This document shows, piece after piece, positions 30,312-55,987 of a stretch of 64,000 bases of DNA. The notes under the pieces are model-generated. The model was not told the DNA's origin. It searched no databases and saw only the letters and a program-made list of their open reading frames with translations. Position 1 is the stretch's first letter. Each line of letters opens with the position of its first letter. Source of the stretch: a virus; the IMG/VR virus record IMGVR_UViG_3300045988_119396. One strand, 5' to 3'. The position numbers and the translations under genes are program-made.

Positions 30312-31481
30312 GTGAGTAAGATGTTAAAAGGTATTAAATTACGTATATACCCAAATAAGAGACAACGTGAACAGTTGGATATTATGTTTGGTAATAGTCG
30401 TTTTATTTGGAATAATATGTTAGCTACGATGAACGAGCGTTACAAGAATAACAAAGATTTACCTATGTTAACCGAGTATAAATTACATGTTCTACTAAAA
30501 CCTTTGAAAGTTGAATATCCATTCTTGAAAGAGAGTGATAGCACTGCTTTACAAGTAGATTGTCAAAATCTGTATCGAGCGTGGAAGAACTTCTTTAAAT
30601 CTGGTTTTGGTAAGCCTAGATTCAAGTCTAGGAAATTCTACAAGCAATCTTATACAGGTAAGTCGGCACCTAATGTTCATGTAGTAGCTAAAAGATATAT
30701 GAAACTACCTAAGCTAGGCTATATCAAAACTAGCAAAACATTTCAACTCACCGATTGCAAGATTAAACGTTATACGTTAAGTCATGGCACGACTGGTCGT
30801 TATTATTTATCTTTACAGGTAGAATGTGAAAATCAAGCATTGTTACCTAAGACAAATAAATCAGTTGGGTTAGATTTAGGTGTAGCAGATTTAGCTATTT
30901 CTTCTGATGGAATTAAATATGATACATTCCATGTGGGAGATTTAGAACATAAAGCTAACTTGTGGCAACGTAAGTTTTCTAAGCGTAGACATCAAGCTAA
31001 GGTTTGTATCGAAAGTGATAAATACTCAAAAGTATTAGTGCCTAGAGATTTTGATGATTTTAAAAATCTACAAAAGGCTCGAAAGCGCAAAGCGAGATTG
31101 CAAGCTAAGATAGCTAACAAACGTAAAGATTACTTGCATAAATTAACCACTACGTTAGTAAAGCAATACGATACTATCGTTATTGAAGATTTAAAGGCTA
31201 AGAATATGATGAAAAATCATAAACTAGCAAAAGCAATAGCTAACGGTTCATGGTATTTATTCCGTTCTATGTTGGAATATAAGTGTAATTGGTATGGGAA
31301 GCAACTAATAGTAGTTAGTCCTAAATACACTTCACAAGTCTGTTCTAACTGTGGTGTAAATACAGGCAAGAAATCGTTAGATGTTCGTGAGTGGACTTGT
31401 GATAATTGTGGTACACATCACGATAGAGATATTAACGCTGCTAGAAATATCTTGGCTAAAGGATTGAAAGAAGTAGCTTAA
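30312..31481 (+). CDS. tnpB: TnpB (OMEGA RuvC-like RNA-guided nuclease, IS200/IS605 OrfB)
   Basis: RuvC-I GLDLGV, RuvC-II IVIEDL, zinc finger CSNCG...CDNCG, Ruv[14 protein letters not shown]. Confidence 0.85.
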
Positions 31482-31764
31482 ATAAGCGCAAAAGGTACGG
31501 GACGTGCCTCGGTAATATATCTAGGTTCTGTAAGTTAGGCTTAGTCCTAAATACTACCTAGAGTTCCCAGAAACCACCGTTTTTAATAGGTGTGTAGTCC
31601 ATATAAGGCAGCTTGATGGTTGCTAAAGGGAACGGGTTGGTTTTTCACATCCTTTCAATGAATACAGATAATTAACCCCTAATACAACTTACAATACTGA
31701 CACAGTTTTTGTCCCGTTCTCTCTAGGAGCTATCAAAAGCTCTCCCAAAACAAGTCTACTACAT
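31380..31764 (+). ncRNA. candidate TnpB omega-RNA scaffold (overlaps the tnpB 3' end and right end)
   Basis: Structured ORF-free DNA 3' of tnpB. Long-range pairing GGGAACGGG (31627-35) with CCCGTTC (31712-18); right-end-proximal hairpin. Confidence 0.3.
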
Positions 31765-31787
31765 GTTAAGAGTTTAGAGAATAAATG
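31765..31787 (+). promoter_or_regulatory. conserved leader GTTAAGAGTTTAGAGAATAAATG (copy 5, right flank of the tnpB island; no consensus promoter upstream)
   Basis: Identical to the leaders at 13175 and 20845. Confidence 0.5.
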
Positions 31788-31969
31788 GTAGACATTTGGT
31801 ATGTAAGGCAGTAGAAAAATGCTAACACACCACAGCATTTACACTAATCAGACGTCCTTGCATACCACGCTCACAGACTTTGGCGCAACGAGGAATGTGG
31901 GAGCGGATAGCTGAGTCACAGGTGGTGTTGTGACAGAGAGCTATGCGTAATTATTTATCTTAGTTGGTA

Positions 31970-32042
31970 GTCATGTGGTGTATATGTGTAGCACACTCGT
32001 CCTTAACACGAGAGAAGTAGGGTTCAACTCTCTACCATGACA
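31970..32042 (+). ncRNA. tRNA-like (73 nt) with anticodon loop CCTTAAC (anticodon UUA, would read UAA) and degenerate D-arm; possible suppressor-tRNA relic
   Basis: Acceptor 6/7 bp; anticodon stem CTCGT/ACGAG at canonical positions 27-31 and 39-43; T-arm TAGGG-TTCAACT-CTCTA. No GG in the D-loop; C at position 33. Confidence 0.25.
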
Positions 32043-32160
32043 TAGAGGCGAAATGTCTCGAAACAAGCATATCTTGTATGGTGATATACATTGTTATGTA
32101 TTGATTGGTTATTAATCAATCTCATATAAATACTCCTTTTTTTTAAATTATTTTTTTGGT

Positions 32161-32212
32161 TACCGCAGATGTTAAAAGGTGCATTTTACGAGTTCGACTC
32201 TCGATGTGGTAA
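32161..32212 (+). ncRNA. tRNA-like minihelix (acceptor, hairpin, T-arm CGAG-TTCGACT-CTCG)
   Basis: 7-bp acceptor-like stem TACCGCA/TGTGGTA with one G-U. Confidence 0.2.
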
Positions 32213-32363
32213 TTGGGGTAGAGCATGAATGCCCCGAAGCACAATAACGGTAAGTGCGTAGATTTACGTATTTTGCGTGACATTAAAAAGTTAATTCATG
32301 AACAGGTTCATTACGACTTACGTGGTTGGTTCATGAATAAGATTTCCTCCTTTTAAAAAGGTA

Positions 32364-32425
32364 TACGGTGTAGCTCAAATGGTAGAGCAAGGAGGCTGAT
32401 ATGGGTTCGAGTCCCATCACCGTAA
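32364..32425 (+). ncRNA. tRNA-like RNA lacking an anticodon arm
   Basis: Perfect 7-bp acceptor TACGGTG/CACCGTA; canonical D-arm GCTCaaatggtaGAGC; T-arm ATGGG-TTCGAGT-CCCAT. Only 12 nt (AAGGAGGCTGAT) where the anticodon arm should be. Confidence 0.35.
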
Positions 32426-33088
32426 TTTTGTTCTTTGACAATCGTATACTTTACTATTCAAACAGCAATTCAAGCATAACCAGTTGTATAAGGGGTCTAA
32501 TCAACCCTTGCTGGATATGTACCTGTAATTCGTAGTAGATGTAGTCTGAGTGATAGCTTAGACAAGTCGTGAGATGGTTAGTAATATCTATTGAACCTAG
32601 TAAAAGCTAGGACGTAGGGTACGTATGTGGATACATGTGACGTTAGTGTTTCACTGGCTGTTGGCATTAGATAATAGACGCTTACAGTGTGAGAATAACC
32701 CATTGACAGCTTAGTGTGGCAACTAAGTGTTGCGTTGGGAATGCCAAGAATAATGTTTGCCTTGACGCTTAGGAAACTAAGCTATAACAACAGAGGTGAG
32801 AACAAGTAGGGTAATGGCAATATATACAGTTAACTTGTGCATTACAAACGACAGATAAGAGATAATTTTGTAAATATTCTGAATGATAACCTGAAAGTTG
32901 GGATTTACCATAATCGCCACATTTTTAAAAAGCAAAAGGAAGTGATGAGGTAGCTCTTTGTCACTCAGACCTTTTGAGATGTTCACATAATAAACGGTAG
33001 CATGTTGAAGCAGAGTGAAAGCTCATGTTTGAATTGCTATTTGAGTAGTGAAGCATATGATATATCAAAGAACATATAACTATATTTA

Positions 33089-33130
33089 CTCACCTCGGTA
33101 GTTATGTTCTGGTTCAACTCCAGAAGTGAG
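33089..33130 (+). ncRNA. T-arm minihelix (CTCAC...TCTGG-TTCAACT-CCAGA...GTGAG)
   Basis: Same T-arm plus short acceptor architecture as the other elements. Confidence 0.2.
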
Positions 33131-33500
33131 CTTTGTACCAACTCCCGACACACCTCTCATCAAGGCAGTACCGTTATGCGTACTTTAAAGTGGGACGGGT
33201 GCGGTACGGCATCTCGTTAGTACGTTACTCGAGGGTGCGGAAGGTGTTTTGCAAGGGACATACTATGCCAAGCGTGGAGGTTGATTACCTCGCAGCAGAT
33301 AGCTACTGTTGTCATACGTGCGAGCTTGGTGTGTGTAGTTAGGTGTGCCGCCTATTTAGTAAGTTGTCTTAAAGTGGCAAGATAGCTTTTCGATTATAAG
33401 CCCGTTAGCCAGCTATCCCTTCGGTGCAGTGGAGTTACTCGCTAGACTTCGCTAGGGAGCAGATTGCAGAGGCGACTGTGATTTATGCTTGATGGCTGAC
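33130..33500 (+). ncRNA. relatively GC-rich structured non-coding segment of unknown identity
   Basis: No credible ORF. Many inverted repeats, e.g. GATAGCT...AGCTATC at 33383-33418. Composition differs from the flanking AT-rich DNA. Confidence 0.25.
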
Positions 33501-33507
33501 TATTTTT

Positions 33508-33597
33508 GGTAAGTTACTCAAGTTGGTGAAGAGGACAGTTTGCTAAACTGTTAGGTCTGCGATTGTAGACGCAAGGGTTCGAGTCCCTTACTTACCT
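33508..33597 (+). tRNA. tRNA-Ser(GCU), class II with long variable arm
   Basis: Acceptor GGTAAGT/ACTTACC; D-arm CTC-aagttggtgaa-GAG; anticodon stem ACAGT/ACTGT with loop TTGCTAA; variable arm GTCT...AGAC; T-arm AAGGG-TTCGAGT-CCCTT. Confidence 0.65.
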
Positions 33598-33845
33598 TTA
33601 ACAATTAAATATTAAAGTTCGTGTGCATATACAGGAATGATTTCACATTGTCATGTTTACCCTTGCAAGTGAAAACACAAGCAGCGTTACAATTACATAT
33701 TATTGTTTGTCTAGTAATTGATGTAATTGTTCATCGTCAGTTAGCTGTTACTCTGGTTTAAGGTCTATCAATTCTTGTTCGCATTGCTTTATTAGTTCTA
33801 CTTCTGGGAGTTATGTTCTAATCATTCCTGTACATACACACGAAT

Positions 33846-37386: not shown

Positions 37387-37944
37387 ATGGTTTACAATTC
37401 TAAACCACTTAGAACACAAGCCCAAATAGGTGATGTATTGTTCTATTTAAGGCGGACTCGTTATCCAGAACGTGATACATTCTTATTTTTGATTGGAATT
37501 AACACTGGGTTAAGATGTTCTGATATAGTAAAACTCAAAATAGGTACTTTAAGACATTCTAAACGACCAGAAATTATAGAGAAGAAAACTGGTAAAAAGA
37601 AAACATTGTTTTTAGATAATGTGCAAGACATTGTGCGTGATTATATTGAAGGCAAAGATGATAGTGAGTGGGCTTTTCCATCTAGCTATGATAAGAATAA
37701 ACACATAACAGTGCAGAATGTATATAAACTATTCAAACGAATTGATAATGAATTAGGTGGAATAGGATTTACTACACACTCTATGAGAAGGACGTTTGGT
37801 TTGTGGTATTATCGTAAGACTAAAAACATATATTACTTGATGGAGTTGTTTAATCATTCTAGCCAAGCAATTACTATGAGATATATAGGTCTTACAGAAG
37901 ATGAGTTAGGGGACTCTTTAGAAGGGTTCAGAATAGGGTACTAA
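37387..37944 (+). CDS. mini tyrosine recombinase (catalytic domain only, 185 aa)
   Basis: GLRCSDIV (Arg), HSMRRTFG (HxxR), ITMRYIG (Tyr). Preceded by a TGgTATAAT box at 37342-37350. Confidence 0.55.
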   Translation: MVYNSKPLRTQAQIGDVLFYLRRTRYPERDTFLFLIGINTGLRCSDIVKLKIGTLRHSKRPEIIEKKTGKKKTLFLDNVQDIVRDYIEGKDDSEWAFPSSYDKNKHITVQNVYKLFKRIDNELGGIGFTTHSMRRTFGLWYYRKTKNIYYLMELFNHSSQAITMRYIGLTEDELGDSLEGFRIGY

Positions 37945-37982: not shown

Positions 37983-38105
37983 AAGAAGGGTAGGTAATTA
38001 ATATGCGTGATTTGGTTGGTTGTGTAGGTTGTTTGTTCTATATTATTTTGGCTATTTTTAGTATTGGCTTGCTTATGTTTTCGTTCATTGAGATGAGCTT
38101 GTAGA
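37983..38105 (+). CDS. small hydrophobic peptide (40 aa)
   Basis: ATG after AAGAAGGGTAGGTAATTAAT; sequence MRDLVGCVGCLFYIILAIFSIGLLMFSFIEMSL. Confidence 0.3.
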
Positions 38106-38122
38106 TGTATTATAATATATTT

Positions 38123-38238
38123 AACTAATGCGATAACTATTAAGTGGTTATTTTAGGTATTAGTTTCAGAAGAATGTTAGATTGAGGTTGAAAAACTTAA
38201 AACCTTACGAGGCTATGCTATTTTGCATAGTCTTTTTA
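38123..38238 (+). ncRNA. array unit 1 short RNA
   Basis: Core GTTTCAGAAGAATGTTAG at 38163-38180; terminator CTATGCtattttGCATAG plus TCTTTTTAT. Confidence 0.45.
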
Positions 38239-38255
38239 TGTGGTATAATAGGGTT

Positions 38256-38347
38256 ACCGCTATTAATGTGGTTTTTTGTTTCAGAAGAATGTAAACAATG
38301 TGGTTATACCTAGAAGGCTGCGTTTTGATACGTAGTCTTTTTATTTT
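38256..38347 (+). ncRNA. array unit 2 short RNA
   Basis: TGgTATAAT at 38241-49; core GTTTCAGAAGAATGTAAA; terminator CTGCGttttgataCGTAG plus TCTTTTTATTTT. Confidence 0.45.
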
Positions 38348-38372
38348 GATTGGAATGTGGTATAATACCAAT

Positions 38373-38444
38373 GTACCGAAAAGGTATTATATATTATTTC
38401 AAAAGAATGTTAAATCGGGACTTCACTTCGGTGGAGTCTTTTTA
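38373..38444 (+). ncRNA. array unit 3 short RNA
   Basis: TGgTATAAT at 38358-66; core TTTCAAAAGAATGTTAAA; terminator GACTTCACttcgGTGGAGTC plus TTTTTAT. Confidence 0.45.
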
Positions 38445-38481
38445 TGTAGTTATGATTGTAGCAATGTGGTATAATATAAGT

Positions 38482-38569
38482 AACTAATCTGCACAGGAGG
38501 ATTAGTTTCAGAAGATTGTTAAACAATGAGGTAAGACTCAAGGCTATGCTTAATGTGTAGCCTTTTTGT
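38482..38569 (+). ncRNA. array unit 4 short RNA
   Basis: TGgTATAAT at 38467-75; core AGGAGGATTAGTTTCAGAAGATTGTTAAA; terminator GGCTAtgcttaatgtgTAGCC plus TTTTTGTAT. Confidence 0.45.
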
Positions 38570-38605
38570 ATGGTATTGCCTCCATATACATGGTATAATA
38601 TAGAT

Positions 38606-38696
38606 ACTGAAATGCCTCATAGGAGGATTAAGTTTCAGAGGAATGTTAAATTGAGTTAAAACTCGTAGTCCCACAGCAGTGTGGGGCTTTTTATTT
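38606..38696 (+). ncRNA. array unit 5 short RNA
   Basis: TGgTATAAT at 38591-99; core AGGAGGATTAAGTTTCAGAGGAATGTTAAA; terminator CCCACAgcagTGTGGG plus GCTTTTTATTT. Confidence 0.45.
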
Positions 38697-38977
38697 ACAA
38701 ATAATGGTAGCGGTGTTATAATAAAACCATAGTAAATATAGTATAAATCCATAATCTTGTTTTGTGAGATTACTTGAGCGAGCCTTTCACTGATGTTTGG
38801 GCCATCCCCTTTCCTATTTTTTGTTATATTTTTCTCAGCTATTTAGTGTTATAATATAGTTGTAATGATGACAAGGAGTAACAGTTCCTTACTTTGTGGC
38901 TTGAACAGAACAACCACATGTATGACGATTTGGGCGGGACTTAGTTCCGTCCTTTTGTTTATTTAGAGGTGATTTAA

Positions 38978-39316
38978 ATGGAATATATGAGCGAAATCAA
39001 CAAAGATATTGTTAATCAAGGCAATGATTATAATGTAAATTGGTATGTCACACGCAATAATTTTGGCAGCTTTAATGGATACGCTGAACTACCAGGTGAC
39101 TGGCATGATGGTGATGAAGATGACTTGCTAGTGCATGGTGGAGTAACATTTCGTGGCAAGTTAAATGGTGTAGAAGTGATAGGATTTGACACAACAGATG
39201 AGTTAGACTATGACATGAGATGGTCTTTGAATGAGATAGTGCGTGAAACCAAAGAGAGATTAGTACGTGGGGTATACGATAGCATAACATATAGAAGAAG
39301 CCAAAAGGCTAGGTAA
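38978..39316 (+). CDS. hypothetical acidic protein
   Basis: RBS AGAGGTGATTTAA; track ORF. Confidence 0.45.
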   Translation: MEYMSEINKDIVNQGNDYNVNWYVTRNNFGSFNGYAELPGDWHDGDEDDLLVHGGVTFRGKLNGVEVIGFDTTDELDYDMRWSLNEIVRETKERLVRGVYDSITYRRSQKAR

Positions 39317-39604: not shown

Positions 39605-40270
39605 TTATTTACTACTTGCTTTCGCTATTCTACCAACGATTTCTTCGACTGGTGTGTTTTTGTTGTCAACATCTTTCATAACAGCAGTCTTTAACCTACC
39701 CAACTTCCAATGAAATCTACATAGTGATGTATATTCTTCATCACCTATTACAACTTGTTCACCATCAGTTACCTGCTTACCATCTACTAGCCTTGCATTC
39801 ATTGTGGCTTTACGTTGGCATGTTGGATTAGCACAAACTGTTTTGATTTCTTCTAGCTTATCTGCATACTTTAATAACGCTTCTGACCCCTCGAATAATT
39901 CACCACGAAAATCAGTCTTTAAGCCATAACAGATAACTGGCATATTATAATAATCTACTATTCTGCAAAGGTCATGCACGTTACTCTTTGACAAGAACTG
40001 TGCCTCATCAACTAAAACACAGCTAGGTTTATCTTTATCTTGAGCATTCTTGTATATCACATCTACTAGATTATCATCTGCATTGATAGCAATAGCGTCT
40101 TCTGATAAACCAATACGACTAGCAACCGTTCCAACACCATCACGTGTATCTAAGGCACTTGTCATAATAATGACTTCTTTACCTTGTTCTCTATAATTAT
40201 GAGCTGTTTTGAGTAATTCAATACTCTTGCCACTGTTCATAGTTCCATATTTAAAGAATAGTTGAGCCAT
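39605..40270 (-). CDS. tdk: thymidine kinase
   Basis: P-loop GTMNSGKS; DEAQF; C-terminal zinc ribbon CANPTC...CRFH. Confidence 0.85.
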   Translation of the reverse strand: MAQLFFKYGTMNSGKSIELLKTAHNYREQGKEVIIMTSALDTRDGVGTVASRIGLSEDAIAINADDNLVDVIYKNAQDKDKPSCVLVDEAQFLSKSNVHDLCRIVDYYNMPVICYGLKTDFRGELFEGSEALLKYADKLEEIKTVCANPTCQRKATMNARLVDGKQVTDGEQVVIGDEEYTSLCRFHWKLGRLKTAVMKDVDNKNTPVEEIVGRIAKASSK

Positions 40271-44408: not shown

Positions 44409-44621
44409 GTTTTGTTAAAAAATTCTCGGCACGTATTTAACGGTAGTGCCTATGTCCCATCACGCTCTCAAAAACGTGTGAACTCTCAAATCATGGTTAT
44501 GGGACGGTGTGTTTTTAAGTGACGTAACTTTTAAAACCATGCCTTGTTTTATTAGTTTTCGCAAAGAACAGCTAACTTTGCAACGACCTATCAATCTTTT
44601 ACAATTAATAGACCCAGTGCG

Positions 44622-48450: not shown

Positions 48451-48935
48451 TACTCTACCTTCCTTTCAACAGTTGTAATTGTGTCATTATGCCAGCTACC
48501 ATGAGCCACCAATAGTATTTCCTGTATCTCAAAACCATACTTCTTACCAATTCCACCACTATTCCAAGCACAACTAATAACATAGCCACCTTGCTTTACA
48601 ATACGTGCAATCTCACGTTTTTGCTTAGTCCAATAGCTGTTTTGTGTGGTTTCCATGTTTACACTCATATCAAGTTTCCTATATGACTCACTCACTTGTC
48701 GTTGAGAATATGGCGGGTCGTATAATACTAAATCAACTGAATTGTCTTCGATTTGTTTGAGAAAATCTAATGCGTCTAAATGATAGTCTGTATCATATTG
48801 TGGGTCTAAATCATTTGTGATAGTCGCTAATTTATTAGCGTTTGCGAAAGGGTCAACCACAAGCATATCTTCCTTTAAATACCTGTGAATTAACTCATTG
48901 ATAGGTTTAATATTGAATGTATTCTTGTTAGGCAT
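48450..48935 (-). CDS. DNA methyltransferase (N6-adenine or N4-cytosine; DPPY motif)
   Basis: LVLYDPPY (motif IV); VVDPFANANK (motif I-like). Confidence 0.65.
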   Translation of the reverse strand: MPNKNTFNIKPINELIHRYLKEDMLVVDPFANANKLATITNDLDPQYDTDYHLDALDFLKQIEDNSVDLVLYDPPYSQRQVSESYRKLDMSVNMETTQNSYWTKQKREIARIVKQGGYVISCAWNSGGIGKKYGFEIQEILLVAHGSWHNDTITTVERKVE

Positions 48936-53897: not shown

Positions 53898-54809
53898 CTA
53901 ATTATTATAGTGGGACTTAGTTAATTCTAAGTCAGCTCGCTGTAATGTTGTCCATGCTCCATACTGAAATTTAGCTTGAGGGAAAGCTAAAAATAGTCTT
54001 CTTCTTAGAATGTTCATGAAAGTCGCACCTTTATAAGACTTGTTGACTTTCTTTTTATCCTTACACCATTTAGCTAAAATTCCAGTTTGGTGATTTTTAG
54101 TTGTGTGGCAATTAGAACATACTGTAATTAGATTATTTACAGTGTTAGTTCCACCTAAAGAACGGTAGATAATATGGTGGATTTTGAGTTTACCACCTTT
54201 TTTCTTACATACTTGACAAGTATAGTTATCTCTAGCTAAAACAAATTGTTTAACAGTTTGATAGCCGTATAAATCACCTTGCTGATAACCCTCACCATTT
54301 ATTTCTGGATTTTTCATTTTTTGAATATCAAACTTACCTACTTCGATATGTAAATCAGCTTTAGGTAAGACTGATAATAAACGCTTTATCCAGTTGATAT
54401 TATGGTTAACTTTACTTAATACCGAAGGCGGTAGCCAGTTATCTTTTTTCTTAGCTATACGATTTAAAAATTTAGCTTTACGATAACGTGTTTTACGGTT
54501 ACGTCTACTTCTACGATATATTCTTCTAGTATCTATTAGCTTTTTGACATCTTGTCTTAACTCTACTTCGCCTTGAAATAAGACTTTATCTTGGCTTGTA
54601 ACAGCTAGTCCAATATGTCTTTGACCGCTATCAATACCAATACTTATATCCTGTTTATAACCAGTTGAACCATATAAGAGCTGAATGGTAAAAGGTTCTT
54701 TTTTAAGTACCTTAGCTTTACCATCTCTTAACAAAATTCTAGCTTTTCTAGGCTTACATGGCATTAACGCTTTACCATGTTTGTTAATCACAAAAACTCG
54801 GTTTTGCAT
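53898..54809 (-). CDS. iscB: IscB-like OMEGA nuclease (PLMP, RuvC-I, Arg-rich bridge helix, RuvC-II, HNH); terminates inside the expected RuvC-III motif
   Basis: ALMPCKPRKARILL; GIDSGQRHIGLAV; RRSRRNRKTRYRKAKFLNR; IHIEVGKFD; HNH CQVCKKKGGKLKIHHI...CSNCH; ends ...LELTKSHYNN*. Start taken at the second Met (54809), after GGAG. Confidence 0.65.
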   Translation of the reverse strand: MQNRVFVINKHGKALMPCKPRKARILLRDGKAKVLKKEPFTIQLLYGSTGYKQDISIGIDSGQRHIGLAVTSQDKVLFQGEVELRQDVKKLIDTRRIYRRSRRNRKTRYRKAKFLNRIAKKKDNWLPPSVLSKVNHNINWIKRLLSVLPKADLHIEVGKFDIQKMKNPEINGEGYQQGDLYGYQTVKQFVLARDNYTCQVCKKKGGKLKIHHIIYRSLGGTNTVNNLITVCSNCHTTKNHQTGILAKWCKDKKKVNKSYKGATFMNILRRRLFLAFPQAKFQYGAWTTLQRADLELTKSHYNN

Positions 54810-55045
54810 AATTTGTACTCCTTTCATTTTTTATAAGGTACTAACGACCTTATCACGTATTTATCAGAGTTAATAAATACATGTAGTTACCCTTCGACAA
54901 TGTTATTTCAGCTTATAAACAAGGTTGACTAGCACATTAACCTTATGCTTGTTTACAGAGCCTCCATAGTGCTAGAAACTAGGGTATCATTTCTAGGTAT
55001 GTTCACTGAAATAACGTAGTTCTCTAAGAACTTAGTCTAGACAAC
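54810..55045 (-). ncRNA. candidate IscB omega-RNA / structured 5' leader
   Basis: About 235-nt ORF-free region directly upstream of iscB. Minus-strand hairpins CTAGAAAtgataccctagTTTCTAG, CTAAGttCTTAG, ATAAGGTcgttagtACCTTAT. Confidence 0.3.
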
Positions 55046-55075
55046 AAAATTATTAAGTTACCTACTTTAGTAGGT
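55036..55075 (-). terminator. rho-independent terminator (minus strand) ACCTACtaaaGTAGGT plus T-rich tail
   Basis: Follows the stop of the 55078..55575 gene. Confidence 0.45.
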
Positions 55076-55077
55076 GG

Positions 55078-55575
55078 TTACTGTTGACCCTTCTTAGTCA
55101 TTTCTTCCAAAGCGTCTTGCCACTTATATTCCACATCTTCCTTGATAATAGGGTTAGTTTTCTTCGTCAGACCAACAACCTTAACCCTAAAGTCATGAAC
55201 ACGAGGAACTACAATCTCAACAGGAATACCATATTGCTTAGCAAACATCTTAAATCTTAATTGTGCTGCTGGGTCAATATTGTATGTTGAGTTAAACCCT
55301 GTCTTGACGTCATAAACATGCAGCAAGTTACCATCTTCATCTCTTATCACAACATCTGGTGTGTAATTAGCACTTCTCAAACGCAGACCATTGTGTAATT
55401 CCACCATAGGTTGTATTGTAAAAGACTCGTGTACGGTAGCATTTAAATCTCTACCATAAATAAATCGCTCATAAAACTTAGCTTCTTTTTCAGAGTCAAA
55501 TTTCAGACCATTAAATTCAACTTTCTTACCAAAGTAAGTTGTTCTACCTCTATTAATTCTAGTTTTGCACCTCAC
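55078..55575 (-). CDS. DUF1064-like phage protein (putative nuclease)
   Basis: KFDSEKEAKFYERF...PDVVIRDEDGNLLHVYDVKT pattern, from recalled family features. Confidence 0.4.
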   Translation of the reverse strand: MRCKTRINRGRTTYFGKKVEFNGLKFDSEKEAKFYERFIYGRDLNATVHESFTIQPMVELHNGLRLRSANYTPDVVIRDEDGNLLHVYDVKTGFNSTYNIDPAAQLRFKMFAKQYGIPVEIVVPRVHDFRVKVVGLTKKTNPIIKEDVEYKWQDALEEMTKKGQQ

Positions 55576-55670: not shown

Positions 55671-55712
55671 AAAAAAACCTCGCAGCAGAAAGCTACGAGG
55701 TCAAAAAGGTTT
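55671..55712. terminator. bidirectional terminator A7-CCTCG...CGAGG-TCAAAAAGGTTT
   Basis: Hairpin flanked by an A-run and a T-run. Confidence 0.55.
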
Positions 55713-55732
55713 ACAGTGTGTTATAATGTATT

Positions 55733-55987
55733 GTGGCGAAAGTTATAAAGACGGTGGCTGACTTATTAGAAAGTGTGGTGTTGCCTATGCAATGCGAAAC
55801 TAACGAAAGGAAAGCCATTTGTGTCTGTCTATCAAGCCTTGATGTTGATGTTAACATTCGGTGTGTTTCTGTTAGCATTACTGACATACATCAGCAAAAA
55901 GTAAGCAACTTTGTTGTGACGATAGTAGATACAGTAAAACCGTCCGATTGTAACTTTGGCGAGTTCGTGGACGGTTGCTGTATGTGA
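55733..55987 (+). CDS. small Cys-rich ORF inside a promoter-to-terminator unit; may be non-coding
   Basis: TGtTATAAT at 55719-27 lies only 5 nt before the GTG start. Terminator CATGCttcgGCATG plus TTTTT at 56031-56060. Confidence 0.25.
   Translation: MAKVIKTVADLLESVVLPMQCETNERKAICVCLSSLDVDVNIRCVSVSITDIHQQKVSNFVVTIVDTVKPSDCNFGEFVDGCCM

What the first reader, a model, noticed from the sequence alone, without database searches (positions are those of the whole stretch)
38100..38975. Tandem array of seven promoter-short RNA-terminator cassettes with a conserved core
Between a 40-aa membrane peptide and the 38978 gene lie seven head-to-tail units of about 110-130 bp. Each unit starts with an extended -10 box (TGgTATAAT) and ends with a GC hairpin plus T-run. 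Five units share a 30-nt core, (A)GGAGGATTAGTTTCAGAAGAATGTTAAA. The only ORFs are ATG TAA; ATG TTA AAT TGA; ATG TTA GAT TGA; and a 14-codon ORF. The core carries an SD-like AGGAGG and a start codon. 

Two readings fit. It could be a family of abundantly transcribed short RNAs acting as decoys or regulators. Alternatively it could be a minigene array whose two- to four-codon ORFs cause peptidyl-tRNA drop-off, as the lambda bar minigenes do, to throttle host translation. I do not recognise this architecture from any described system.
Basis: partly seen in the sequence, partly recalled or inferred. Interest (0 to 1): 0.85.

Follow-up and report, generated by a model that had tools for sequence, protein, structure and literature searches.

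The report
Phage genes mimicking host CRISPR RNAs
A large phage of the gut bacterium Ligilactobacillus salivarius carries five small back-to-back genes, each making a short RNA that imitates the host's own CRISPR-Cas9 guide RNA. Most likely they jam Cas9 immunity, and one of them may also switch off the cas9 gene. This kind of phage weapon was first described in 2023-2026.

Summary
The repeats are real. Five cassettes at 38088-38693 each have an extended -10 promoter, a 22-40 nt hairpin-forming 5' part, a conserved core and an intrinsic terminator. "Units 6 and 7" lack the core and are different.

The core is the first 20 nt of the type II-A CRISPR repeat of L. salivarius, in crRNA sense. It is identical to the terminal repeat of host arrays. 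With its degenerate 3' extension it pairs with the host tracrRNA anti-repeat (-23 to -31 kcal/mol; shuffled -11.6).

L. salivarius II-A spacers match this phage: two at 30/30, one at 29/30 and one at 24/25.

Unit 3's last 11 nt match, anchored at the 3' end and with a compatible PAM, the -35 region of the predicted cas9 promoter in all 11 L. salivarius-type loci examined. Unit 2 copies an element from a host array tail. No targets were found for the other guides.

Best reading: a multiplexed set of viral scaRNA / RNA anti-CRISPR genes that sequester tracrRNA and Cas9, with unit 3 also able to silence cas9.

The minigene reading fails, because the ATG and the SD are not conserved.

This is a known kind (Racr 2023; vscaRNA and vsgRNA preprints 2026). 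I did not find the architecture of tandem, individually transcribed cassettes described.

The parts
38088..38116 (+). Promoter of unit 1 (TTGAGA, 17 nt spacer, TATAAT)
   Evidence: 11 of 12 consensus positions.
38123..38239 (+). Unit 1 RNA (predicted). The 5' part, 38123-38162, forms nested hairpins. The repeat-like segment is 38163-38196 (core 38163-38182). The terminator is 38209-38234 plus a T-run.
   Evidence: Fold z = -4.9. Duplex with host tracrRNA -30.7 kcal/mol. The homologous 5' part in L014 keeps the hairpins through an A-U to U-G change and a wobble change.
38222..38249 (+). Promoter of unit 2 (TTTGCA, 16 nt spacer, TGgTATAAT)
38256..38344 (+). Unit 2 RNA (predicted). The 5' part, 38256-38277 (ACCGCTATTAATGTGGTTTTTT), is homologous to the last 'spacer' of a host array tail. 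The repeat-like segment is 38278-38310. The terminator is 38312-38341.
   Evidence: The host L110 tail reads ...ACCGCTAGTTAAGTGGTTTTTT|GTTTCAGAAGAATGTTAAAT. tracrRNA duplex -28.9 kcal/mol.
38358..38366 (+). Extended -10 box of unit 3 (TGGTATAAT)
38373..38445 (+). Unit 3 RNA (predicted). The 5' hairpin is 38373-38387. The repeat-like core is 38396-38417. The terminator is 38417-38440.
   Evidence: z = -2.7. tracrRNA duplex -23.3 kcal/mol. This unit is absent from the natural variant L098.
38385..38395 (+). Candidate 11-nt guide of unit 3 (TATTATATATT). It matches the predicted cas9 promoter of L. salivarius.
   Evidence: Exact match anchored at the 3' end, followed by TGAAAA, in L103, L104, L011, L107-L114. 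A match this long arose in 10 of 5000 dinucleotide shuffles. A gapped alignment this good arose in 9 of 1000. The 11-mer occurs once per 24-kb host locus.
38467..38475 (+). Extended -10 box of unit 4 (TGGTATAAT)
38482..38569 (+). Unit 4 RNA (predicted). The 5' hairpin, 38482-38507, is AACUAAUC-loop-GAUUAGUU and closes onto the first bases of the repeat. The repeat-like segment is 38505-38538, nearly full length. The terminator is 38540-38564.
   Evidence: z = -3.7. tracrRNA duplex -31.1 kcal/mol. The 5' part is conserved in L012/L013 and in unit B of L125, and the substitutions there keep the stem.
38591..38599 (+). Extended -10 box of unit 5 (TGGTATAAT)
38606..38693 (+). Unit 5 RNA (predicted). 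The 5' part is 38606-38631. The repeat-like segment is 38632-38663. The terminator is 38667-38688.
   Evidence: z = -3.2. tracrRNA duplex -26.3 kcal/mol. Its 3' half is shared with the single unit of L012-L014.

Best explanation
The five cassettes are independent small genes. Each produces an RNA of about 70-117 nt that imitates a processed type II-A crRNA, or scaRNA, of the host Ligilactobacillus salivarius.

Anatomy of each RNA:
- a short 5' 'guide' segment, mostly locked in a hairpin;
- the 5' part of the CRISPR repeat (lower stem, bulge and start of the upper stem), predicted to be unpaired;
- a degenerate remainder of the repeat;
- a terminator hairpin.

Inferred mechanism. The RNAs are transcribed from strong extended -10 promoters. 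They anneal to the host tracrRNA anti-repeat and are loaded into Cas9. This titrates tracrRNA and Cas9 away from the phage-targeting crRNAs, which is sequestration as in an RNA anti-CRISPR. Unit 3 also carries an 11-nt PAM-proximal match to the -35 region of the cas9 promoter. That is long enough to bind and too short to cut, so it could send Cas9 to repress its own operon, as viral scaRNAs and vsgRNAs do.

Five diverged copies would raise the dose and vary the RNA.

Shown here: repeat identity and sense, complementarity to the tracrRNA, host identity, targeting of this phage by host II-A spacers, and the promoter match.

Inferred: transcription, binding to Cas9 and tracrRNA, and inhibition.
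For: 1. The core is the first 20 nt of a 36-nt repeat that forms 66-bp-period arrays downstream of cas9-cas1-cas2-csn2 on the same strand. The repeat GTTTCAGAAGTATGTTAAATCAATAAGGTTAAGACC is published for L. salivarius (PMC10715006).
2. The phage variant, with A at position 11, is identical to the first 20 nt of the terminal repeat of L. salivarius arrays.
3. The 20-nt cores of units 1, 3 and 5 pair with the L. salivarius-type tracrRNA anti-repeat at -16 kcal/mol. The host repeat's own 20 nt give -11.8 and shuffles give -6.0 +/- 1.9. The 38-nt segments give -23 to -31, against -35 for the host repeat and -11.6 +/- 2.9 for shuffles.
4. The window has no anti-repeat or tracrRNA-like sequence and no second-strand copy of the core, so a host tracrRNA would be needed.
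5. Four of 159 unique L. salivarius II-A spacers hit the window: 30/30, 30/30, 29/30 and 24/25. This gives both the host and the selective pressure.
6. The guide of unit 3 matches the predicted cas9 promoter in 11 of 11 loci. Its flank TGA fits the roughly NGR motif seen at four protospacer sites of this phage lineage and one in L001, and also the published prediction NNaWNW (PMC11288051).
7. All five RNAs fold as a 5' hairpin, an unpaired core and a terminator, with z-scores from -2.7 to -4.9.
8. Homologous units occur in other phage types: L125 (38 kb) has two in tandem after the lysin gene, and L129 has one. The 5' hairpins are conserved.
9. Relative L014 carries, at the same locus, a cassette with two type I-E-like repeat hairpins. 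L. salivarius has type I-E systems.
10. The mechanisms have precedent: Racr (PMC10651486), and vscaRNA / vsgRNA (bioRxiv 10.64898/2026.06.01.729453, which includes L. salivarius and IMG/VR examples).
Against: - There are no expression or binding data.
- Only one of about nine distinct guides in this family matches the cas9 promoter. That unit is missing from one natural variant (L098) and from the single-unit relatives.
- The cas9 promoter is predicted from sequence only. Its -35 to -10 spacing is 19 nt, and the scan tool did not call it.
- The target 11-mer is A/T-only. Post-hoc p-values run from 0.002 to 0.04 depending on the control.
- The 5' hairpins of units 1, 4 and 5 occlude the first 3-7 nt of the repeat, which must open for the lower stem to form with the tracrRNA.
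- No recognisable Acr or Aca gene lies next to the array, although reported vscaRNAs do have one nearby.
- The PAM rests on four protospacer sites of this phage lineage and one in L001.
- No host scaRNA with the guide of unit 3 was found in seven loci.
Confidence: 0.75

Rival explanations
1. The RNAs are working guides rather than decoys. The phage hijacks host Cas9 and tracrRNA to bind or cut specific targets other than cas9, for example other host defence promoters, resident prophages or competing phages. Each unit would carry a different guide.
For: - The promoters sit so that the 5' parts are 22-26 nt long, close to a mature guide.
- The five guides differ from one another.
- The u4-type and u5-type 3' ends (CAGGAGGATTA, AGGAGGATTAA) are conserved across three phage lineages.
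- Unit 2 shares its last 10 nt with an element in a host array tail.
- Viral mini-arrays used in conflicts between viruses, and Cracr arrays that target variants of one system, are known.
Against: - No match of about 19 nt or more in 50,697 phage records or 72,556 plasmids.
- No 3'-anchored match of 10 nt or more with a suitable flank in seven 24-kb host CRISPR loci or in the window, apart from unit 3.
- The guides are predicted to be base-paired in hairpins, and substitutions between homologues preserve those hairpins. This points to structural rather than guide constraint.
- Whole L. salivarius genomes could not be searched.
Confidence: 0.13
2. The array is a non-functional relic. A fragment of a host CRISPR array tail was captured by the phage, duplicated by unequal recombination, and is now decaying or serves only as recombination homology.
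For: - The core equals the host terminal repeat, and unit 2 resembles a host array tail.
- Copy number varies between 1, 4 and 5 through recombination between units.
- The 3' halves of the repeats are degenerate.
Against: - Every copy keeps its own extended -10 promoter and a strong terminator.
- The tracrRNA-pairing core is the best conserved and is predicted to be unpaired in all copies.
- The array is identical in seven of the eight contigs shown, each from a different sample; the protein next to it is indexed in 65 blocks of the collection.
- Homologues persist in unrelated phage backbones.
Confidence: 0.05
3. The units are small RNAs unrelated to CRISPR, such as antisense regulators of host or phage mRNAs, or minigenes whose 2-4 codon ORFs cause peptidyl-tRNA drop-off.
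For: Short ORFs begin at the ATG in the core of units 1, 2, 3 and 5. AGGAGG is present in units 4 and 5.
Against: - The ATG is absent from unit 4 and from L012/L013.
- SD and ATG never occur at a functional spacing.
- The ATG is inherited from the CRISPR repeat.
- A 19-20/20 identity to a host CRISPR repeat, together with complementarity extending across the tracrRNA anti-repeat, is not expected for an unrelated sRNA.
Confidence: 0.03

Closest known systems
Viral scaRNAs (vscaRNAs), Feussner et al., bioRxiv 10.64898/2026.06.01.729453, June 2026
   Same: - Phage-encoded guide plus repeat-like RNA with no tracrRNA part, which pairs with the host tracrRNA.
- A guide of about 11 nt directed at the cas9 promoter (-35 region), matching unit 3 here.
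- Proposed to sequester tracrRNA and Cas9 and to silence cas9.
- L. salivarius strains and IMG/VR contigs are among their examples.
   Different: - Here there are five diverged copies in tandem, each with its own promoter and terminator. The main text of the preprint does not mention tandem sets.
- Only one guide matches the cas9 promoter, and the others are hairpin-locked.
- No host scaRNA with the guide of unit 3 was found in seven loci.
- No adjacent Acr or Aca gene was recognised.
- Their Table S6 is truncated in the held copy, so I cannot say whether any of these loci is listed.
RNA anti-CRISPRs (Racr; Camara-Wilpert et al. 2023, PMC10651486)
   Same: A promoter-driven, phage-encoded mimic of a CRISPR repeat that competes for Cas components. 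The effect depends on dose. Racrs often sit in anti-defence loci.
   Different: - The validated Racrs are solitary full-length repeats of types I-C, I-E, I-F and V-A that bind Cas6, Cas7 or Cas12a directly.
- Here the repeat is truncated and degenerate, arrayed, and of type II-A, so the first partner must be the tracrRNA.
- SRUfinder's rules (>=90% identity and coverage; no repeat-like sequence in the 100-bp flanks) would discard this locus.
vsgRNA / rAcrIIA1 (bioRxiv 10.64898/2026.06.01.729453 and 10.64898/2026.06.03.729762)
   Same: A phage RNA inhibitor of type II-A Cas9 that works by guide-RNA mimicry, through sequestration plus repression of the cas9 promoter.
   Different: Those RNAs are chimeric crRNA-tracrRNA molecules (natural sgRNAs) that need no host tracrRNA. 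The units here contain no anti-repeat, nexus or tracrRNA hairpins.
Cracr arrays (Liu et al., bioRxiv 10.1101/2024.10.29.618823)
   Same: Multiplexed viral crRNA-like regulatory RNAs with partial guides that redirect Cas effectors to cas or toxin promoters. Members of one array target variants of the same system.
   Different: Cracr arrays are reported for types V-A and I-B, I-C, I-E and I-F. They are CRISPR-like arrays processed by Cas enzymes. Here each RNA is its own transcription unit and the type is II-A.
Host scaRNA / tracr-L autoregulation (Francisella novicida scaRNA; S. pyogenes tracr-L, Workman et al. 2021) and the degenerate terminal repeat of L. salivarius arrays
   Same: - A short-guide, repeat-like RNA that uses tracrRNA and Cas9 to bind DNA without cutting.
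- L. salivarius was predicted to have a scaRNA just downstream of its II-A array (PMC11288051).
- The phage core is identical to the terminal repeat there.
   Different: These are host-encoded, single-copy parts of the CRISPR locus. The host tail elements seen here (L108, L110) have no detectable target in the cas9 promoter.
Lambda bar minigenes
   Same: Very short ORFs in a phage intergenic region.
   Different: There is no conserved start codon and no functional SD spacing. The ORFs are by-products of a CRISPR repeat.

Membership tests
Viral scaRNA (vscaRNA; criteria of bioRxiv 10.64898/2026.06.01.729453) | [quoted passage not shown] | tested here: met
   The cores differ from GTTTCAGAAGAATGTTAAAT, the first 20 nt of the host terminal repeat, at 1-3 of 20 positions. 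They start at repeat position 1.
Viral scaRNA (vscaRNA; criteria of bioRxiv 10.64898/2026.06.01.729453) | Complementarity to the anti-repeat of the host tracrRNA, with no tracrRNA part of its own | tested here: met
   Duplex energies of -23 to -31 kcal/mol against -11.6 +/- 2.9 for shuffles. There is no anti-repeat anywhere in the window.
Viral scaRNA (vscaRNA; criteria of bioRxiv 10.64898/2026.06.01.729453) | A short guide (>=10 nt, exact, anchored at the 3' end) matching the cas9 promoter near the start site, with a PAM | tested here: inconclusive
   Met for unit 3 only: 11 nt, flank TGA, site at about -47 to -37 with the PAM over the -35 element, in 11 of 11 loci. Not met for units 1, 2, 4 and 5. 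The promoter and the PAM are both predictions.
Viral scaRNA (vscaRNA; criteria of bioRxiv 10.64898/2026.06.01.729453) | The guide is identical to that of a host-encoded scaRNA | tested here: inconclusive
   - The last 10 nt of unit 2 (GTGGTTTTTT) equal those of the element in the L110 array tail. That host element has no target in the cas9 promoter.
- No host element with the guide of unit 3 was found in seven loci.
Viral scaRNA (vscaRNA; criteria of bioRxiv 10.64898/2026.06.01.729453) | Encoded on a phage or prophage, near an Acr or Aca gene | tested here: inconclusive
   Phage origin is met: replication module and 123-129 kb viral contigs. No Acr or Aca was recognised among the neighbouring ORFs that were searched, using PHROGs and Pfam for eight of them and PDB sequences for three. 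Unknown Acr proteins cannot be excluded.
RNA anti-CRISPR (Racr / solitary repeat unit) | A solitary, near full-length repeat (SRUfinder: >=90% identity and coverage, no repeat-like flanks) downstream of a promoter | tested here: not met
   The promoter is present. The repeat, however, is well conserved only over 20 of 36 nt, and five copies lie 109-127 bp apart. Functionally the units may still work like a Racr.
RNA anti-CRISPR (Racr / solitary repeat unit) | Binds Cas components and inhibits interference | not testable with these tools
   This needs pull-downs and plaque assays.
Bona fide (mini-)CRISPR array | Regular repeat-spacer period with spacers of about 30 nt, transcribed as one precursor from a leader | tested here: not met
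   The period is 109-127 bp, against 66 bp in host arrays. Every unit has its own promoter and terminator.
vsgRNA / rAcrIIA1 (natural single-guide RNA) | A crRNA-like part fused to an anti-repeat, nexus and tracrRNA hairpins in one RNA | tested here: not met
   The units contain no anti-repeat. The folds show only a 5' hairpin, an unpaired core and a terminator.
Minigenes causing peptidyl-tRNA drop-off (lambda bar type) | A conserved SD and start codon driving a 2-4 codon ORF | tested here: not met
   The ATG is lost in unit 4 and in L012/L013. AGGAGG is present in 2 of 5 units, and where both occur they are 15 nt apart.

The most novel reading that the evidence does not exclude
The array is a programmable multi-guide battery. 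Each hairpin-gated RNA would load host Cas9, through the host tracrRNA, and direct it as a non-cutting repressor to a different host promoter. One target would be cas9 (unit 3). The others would be as yet unidentified defence or physiology genes (units 1, 2, 4 and 5, whose 3' ends are conserved across three phage lineages). A virulent phage would then be using the host's own Cas9 as a multiplexed CRISPRi machine.
Probability: 0.15. Interest if true: 0.8.

Novelty: new variant of a known kind. Interest (0 to 1): 0.55.

Why it matters
- It shows that RNA mimicry of CRISPR guides against Cas9 can be organised as a tandem family of individually transcribed genes. This suits a system with no Cas6-type processing. 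The family lives in a large lytic-type phage of a probiotic gut species.
- It gives a concrete, testable case that combines tracrRNA/Cas9 sequestration with a candidate guide that silences cas9.
- It points to an origin from the terminal repeat, or tail, of the host array.
- It shows that repeat-search pipelines tuned to solitary full-length repeats miss such loci.
- In practice, it bears on phage resistance of L. salivarius strains and offers compact natural crRNA scaffolds.

Tried and rejected
- Rfam, gathering thresholds on the window and E-value mode on the region: no family covers the units. The only CRISPR-DR hit is weak (E = 2.6).
- TRF finds no tandem repeat.
- Megablast and blastn of the region against 50,697 phage records: no relative apart from thymidine kinase.
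- Protospacer searches with the five 5' parts against the phage and plasmid collections: nothing.
- Spacers of six arrays from other species and of four metagenome arrays: no hit to the phage. The hits came only from true L. salivarius loci.
- 71 spacers against the phage collection, to derive a PAM: no match.
- Search for a host scaRNA carrying the guide of unit 3: not found in seven loci.
- Other units against the cas9 promoter, the tracrRNA promoter and the leader: nothing above chance.
- Acr or Aca homologues among the neighbours: none.
- The type I-E-like cassette of relative L014 could not be confirmed through Rfam or the plasmid collection.
- Tables S5 and S6 of the vscaRNA preprint are truncated in the held copy.
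Full report
**1. Observation**

The region between the integrase-like ORF (37387-37944), a 33-codon hydrophobic ORF (38003-38104) and the 112-aa gene at 38978 was read directly.

- The 20-mer GTTTCAGAAGAATGTTAAAT occurs five times with <=3 mismatches, only on the + strand, at 38163, 38278, 38396, 38505 and 38632. Shuffles give 0.05. Spacing is 115, 118, 109 and 127 bp.
- The consensus scan finds 8 terminator-like hairpins in 2 kb against 0.5 expected. One follows each core.
- Each core is preceded by T(G)nTATAAT.
- With a start site about 7 nt after the -10 box, the RNAs would be 71-117 nt long. The 5' part is 22-26 nt, or 40 nt in unit 1.
- TRF sees no tandem repeat, because the units are diverged outside the core.
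- 'Unit 6' has a promoter but no core and no real terminator. 'Unit 7' is the structured leader of the 38978 gene.
- AGGAGG is present in units 4 and 5 only. The core ATG is missing from unit 4.

**2. What the core is**

A scan of one genome per species with GTTTCAGAAGNATGTTAAAT found CRISPR arrays with a 66-bp period in Ligilactobacillus aviarius, L. hohenheimensis, Ca. L. excrementigallinarum, Ligilactobacillus sp., Pediococcus acidilactici and a MAG.

- The 36-nt repeat starts with the core.
- The arrays lie downstream of cas9-cas1-cas2-csn2 on the same strand. The phage core therefore has crRNA sense.
- The variant GTTTCAGAAGTATGTTAAATCAATAAGGTTAAGACC is the published type II-A repeat of L. 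salivarius (PMC10715006).
- The tracrRNA is encoded between cas9 and cas1 on the opposite strand.
- The core covers the lower stem, the bulge and the first 10 bp of the upper stem. This is the part kept in mature crRNA (established knowledge of type II-A crRNA processing).

**3. Host and selective pressure**

Cas9 of the T-type loci is 87-94% identical to L. salivarius Cas9 proteins. Seven complete L. salivarius loci were fetched.

Four of their 159 unique spacers match the window:
- 30/30 at 61242-61213;
- 30/30 at 48900-48929;
- 29/30 at 39795-39824 (30/30 in relatives);
- 24/25 at 33611-33587.

The 3' flanks (GGATTA, AGGCAT, GGGTTT, GGACTC) suggest a PAM of roughly NGR. The published prediction is NNaWNW (PMC11288051).

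The window itself is the replication module of a large phage, with DNA polymerase, helicases, ligase and thymidine kinase. Its relatives are viral contigs of 123-129 kb. The window also contains a salivarius-1 RNA motif.

**4. Pairing with the tracrRNA**

- The terminal repeat of L. salivarius arrays is GTTTCAGAAGAATGTTAAATTAATAGGGTCGAGGCC. It has A at position 11, exactly as in the phage cores.
- That A pairs with the tracrRNA, whereas the T of internal repeats does not.
- 20-nt cores of units 1, 3 and 5: -16 kcal/mol. Host repeat 20 nt: -11.8. Shuffles: -6.0 +/- 1.9.
- Aligned to the repeat, units 1, 2, 4 and 5 keep a degenerate 3' half.
- 38-nt segments: -23 to -31 kcal/mol. Host repeat: -35. 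Shuffles: -11.6 +/- 2.9.
- The window holds no anti-repeat. The RNAs would therefore depend on the host tracrRNA.

**5. Structure**

All five RNAs are predicted to have the same layout: a 5' hairpin, a single-stranded core and a terminator hairpin, with z-scores from -2.7 to -4.9. In units 1, 4 and 5 the 5' hairpin closes onto the first bases of the repeat.

Homologous 5' parts in other phages differ by changes that keep the stems:
- u4: AACUAAUC...GAUUAGUU.
- L012: AGCUAAUC, which gives a G-U pair.
- L125 unit B: AACUAAUU, which gives a U-G pair.
- u1 against L014: an A-U to U-G change.

**6. Guides**

*Unit 3.* Its last 11 nt (TATTATATATT, 38385-38395) match exactly, anchored at the 3' end, a site upstream of cas9 in all 11 L. 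salivarius-type loci (L103, L104, L011, L107-L114). The match is followed by TGAAAA.

- The site ends at the TTGAAA box, which lies 19 nt upstream of TGTATAAT. This is the only extended -10 box between the upstream terminator and cas9. The promoter is my own reading; the scan tool requires a 16-18 nt spacing and did not call it.
- The 11-mer occurs once per 24-kb host locus and once in the 64-kb window.
- Anchored matches of >=11 nt to any of the five guides arose in 10 of 5000 dinucleotide shuffles of the promoter. Shuffled guides hit the real promoter in 203 of 5000 trials.
- A gapped alignment extends the similarity: TACCGAAA---AGGTATTATATATT against TACCTAAAATTATTTATTATATATT. This was reached in 9 of 1000 shuffles.
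- Eleven PAM-proximal base pairs are what tracr-L, scaRNA and vscaRNA use to bind without cutting.

*Unit 2.* Its 5' part is homologous to the last 'spacer' of the L110 array tail (ACCGCTAGTTAAGTGGTTTTTT|terminal repeat). That tail has its own TGTTATAAT promoter. No target was found for it.

*Units 1, 4 and 5.* They have no 3'-anchored match of >=10 nt with a suitable flank in the host loci or in the window. They have no match of about 19 nt or more in the phage or plasmid collections.

**7. Distribution**

- The gene downstream of the array is indexed in 65 blocks of the assembly collection. All eight contigs shown carry the array. One sample name suggests a human gut cohort, which is my inference.
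- Seven of those eight contigs have the identical five-unit array. L098 lacks exactly unit 3.
- IMG/VR relatives L012 and L013 have one unit with a u4-like 5' part. L014 has one chimeric unit (u1 5' part, u5 3' part) plus a cassette with two type I-E-like repeat hairpins.
- A 38-kb phage contig (L125) has two tandem units after its lysin gene, and L129 has one.
- Temperate-type contigs L001, L003, L117 and L127 carry a solitary longer repeat.

**8. Interpretation**

The units are phage genes for mimics of type II-A crRNA or scaRNA. The common denominator is a tracrRNA-pairing core presented single-stranded, strong promoters, and 5' ends that are hairpin-locked and mostly without a target. This fits titration of tracrRNA and Cas9.

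Unit 3 plausibly adds repression of cas9. I put about 0.75 on the overall anti-Cas9 mimic reading and about 0.55 on unit 3 being a true cas9-promoter guide.

The main rival is that the other guides have real targets elsewhere in the host genome.

The minigene idea is rejected.

**9. Comparison with the literature**

- Racrs (PMC10651486) are solitary full-length repeat mimics of types I and V-A. Their finder would discard this locus.
- rAcrIIA1 and vsgRNAs are crRNA-tracrRNA chimeras.
- Viral scaRNAs in the June 2026 preprint are the closest match and include L. salivarius and IMG/VR cases.
- What I did not find described there: the tandem five-gene, one-promoter-one-terminator architecture; the hairpin-locked 5' parts that do not match the cas9 promoter; identity to the terminal repeat; and the absence of a recognisable Acr or Aca neighbour.
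- The tables that would settle overlap with that preprint are truncated in the held copy.

Verdict: a new variant of a known kind.

Noticed in passing
window 38694-38830 ('unit 6'); L012 4800-5090: This is a promoter-driven small-RNA-like cassette, conserved in relatives (ATAATCTTGTTTTGTGAGATTACTTGAGCGAGCCTTTCAC...), with no CRISPR-like core. In L012-L014 it converges on a minus-strand ORF of about 33 aa that is hydrophobic (MLSLITNLAIGIITGLLANWLYDVFKKR) and looks like a type I toxin. That ORF is absent from the window, where the RNA also lacks a terminator.
   Followed up: partly
window 38847-38977 ('unit 7'): An extended -10 promoter, a structured leader of about 95 nt and a strong terminator (38932-38952) sit immediately before the RBS of the 112-aa gene (38978-39316, phrog_2164, function unknown). 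The last 45 nt or so are conserved in all relatives and the 5' half is variable. This looks like an attenuator or leader. It is not a member of the crRNA-mimic family.
   Followed up: partly
L014 4746-4966 (= L004 2480-2700): Relative phage IMGVR_UViG_2898099943_000001 has, between the peptide ORF and its single II-A-like unit, a promoter-driven cassette. It holds two hairpins that resemble type I-E repeats (GTGTTCCCCAATTATTTGGGGGTGACCC and GTGTTCCCCACAATCGTGGGGTTAATAAGG), enclosed by a long stem and followed by a terminator. It may be a type I-E RNA anti-CRISPR. Neither Rfam nor the plasmid search could confirm the repeat type.
   Followed up: partly
L110 18150-18320: The tail of one L. salivarius II-A array contains an internal TGTTATAAT promoter. 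It is followed by a degenerate repeat (GTTTCGGAAGTATGTTAAATTAATTAGGTTGATAC), a hairpin-forming 'spacer' and the terminal repeat. This is probably the scaRNA predicted downstream of the array in PMC11288051, and it may be the source of phage unit 2. No target was found.
   Followed up: partly
window 54883-55088 (-) and 53898-54827 (-): A HEARO RNA (Rfam RF02033, 115.9 bits), which I take to be the IscB-type omega RNA, lies next to a 309-aa HNH endonuclease ORF inside the phage replication module. An rli28-like sRNA hit lies at 55712-55891 (+).
   Followed up: no
window 30312-33600: This stretch holds a TnpB-like 'transposase' ORF (30312-31481, phrog_506), a suppressor-type tRNA with anticodon TTA (31970-42), a full-length ROOL RNA (32456-33043, 245 bits) and a tRNA-Ser (33508-33597). 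Together they form a cluster of non-coding RNAs in a phage.
   Followed up: no
window 44452-44505 (-): A salivarius-1 RNA motif (RF03030) scores just above its gathering score. This is consistent with an L. salivarius-associated phage.
   Followed up: no
L001 163-200; L003 6631-6668; L117 10062; L127 774: Temperate-type phage contigs carry a solitary, longer copy of the same II-A repeat (for example GTTTCAGAAGTATGTTAAATCAATAAAGTTAATATTAA). It sits in the divergent intergenic region next to an HTH-type gene. This is a classic solitary repeat unit, and its 'guide' differs from those in the window.
   Followed up: partly
window 37387-37944 (+): A 185-aa protein consists only of the catalytic domain of a tyrosine recombinase (PF00589). 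It lies in what otherwise looks like a large lytic-type phage, directly upstream of the RNA array. Homologues at 35-43% identity are common in phage contigs of about 30-45 kb.
   Followed up: no
L104 1963-5990; L112 15396-16078: Some L. salivarius-type II-A loci have a split cas9 (372 + 945 aa) or a split csn2. This agrees with the split cas9 reported for strain NCK 1355, so not every host system the phage meets is intact.
   Followed up: no
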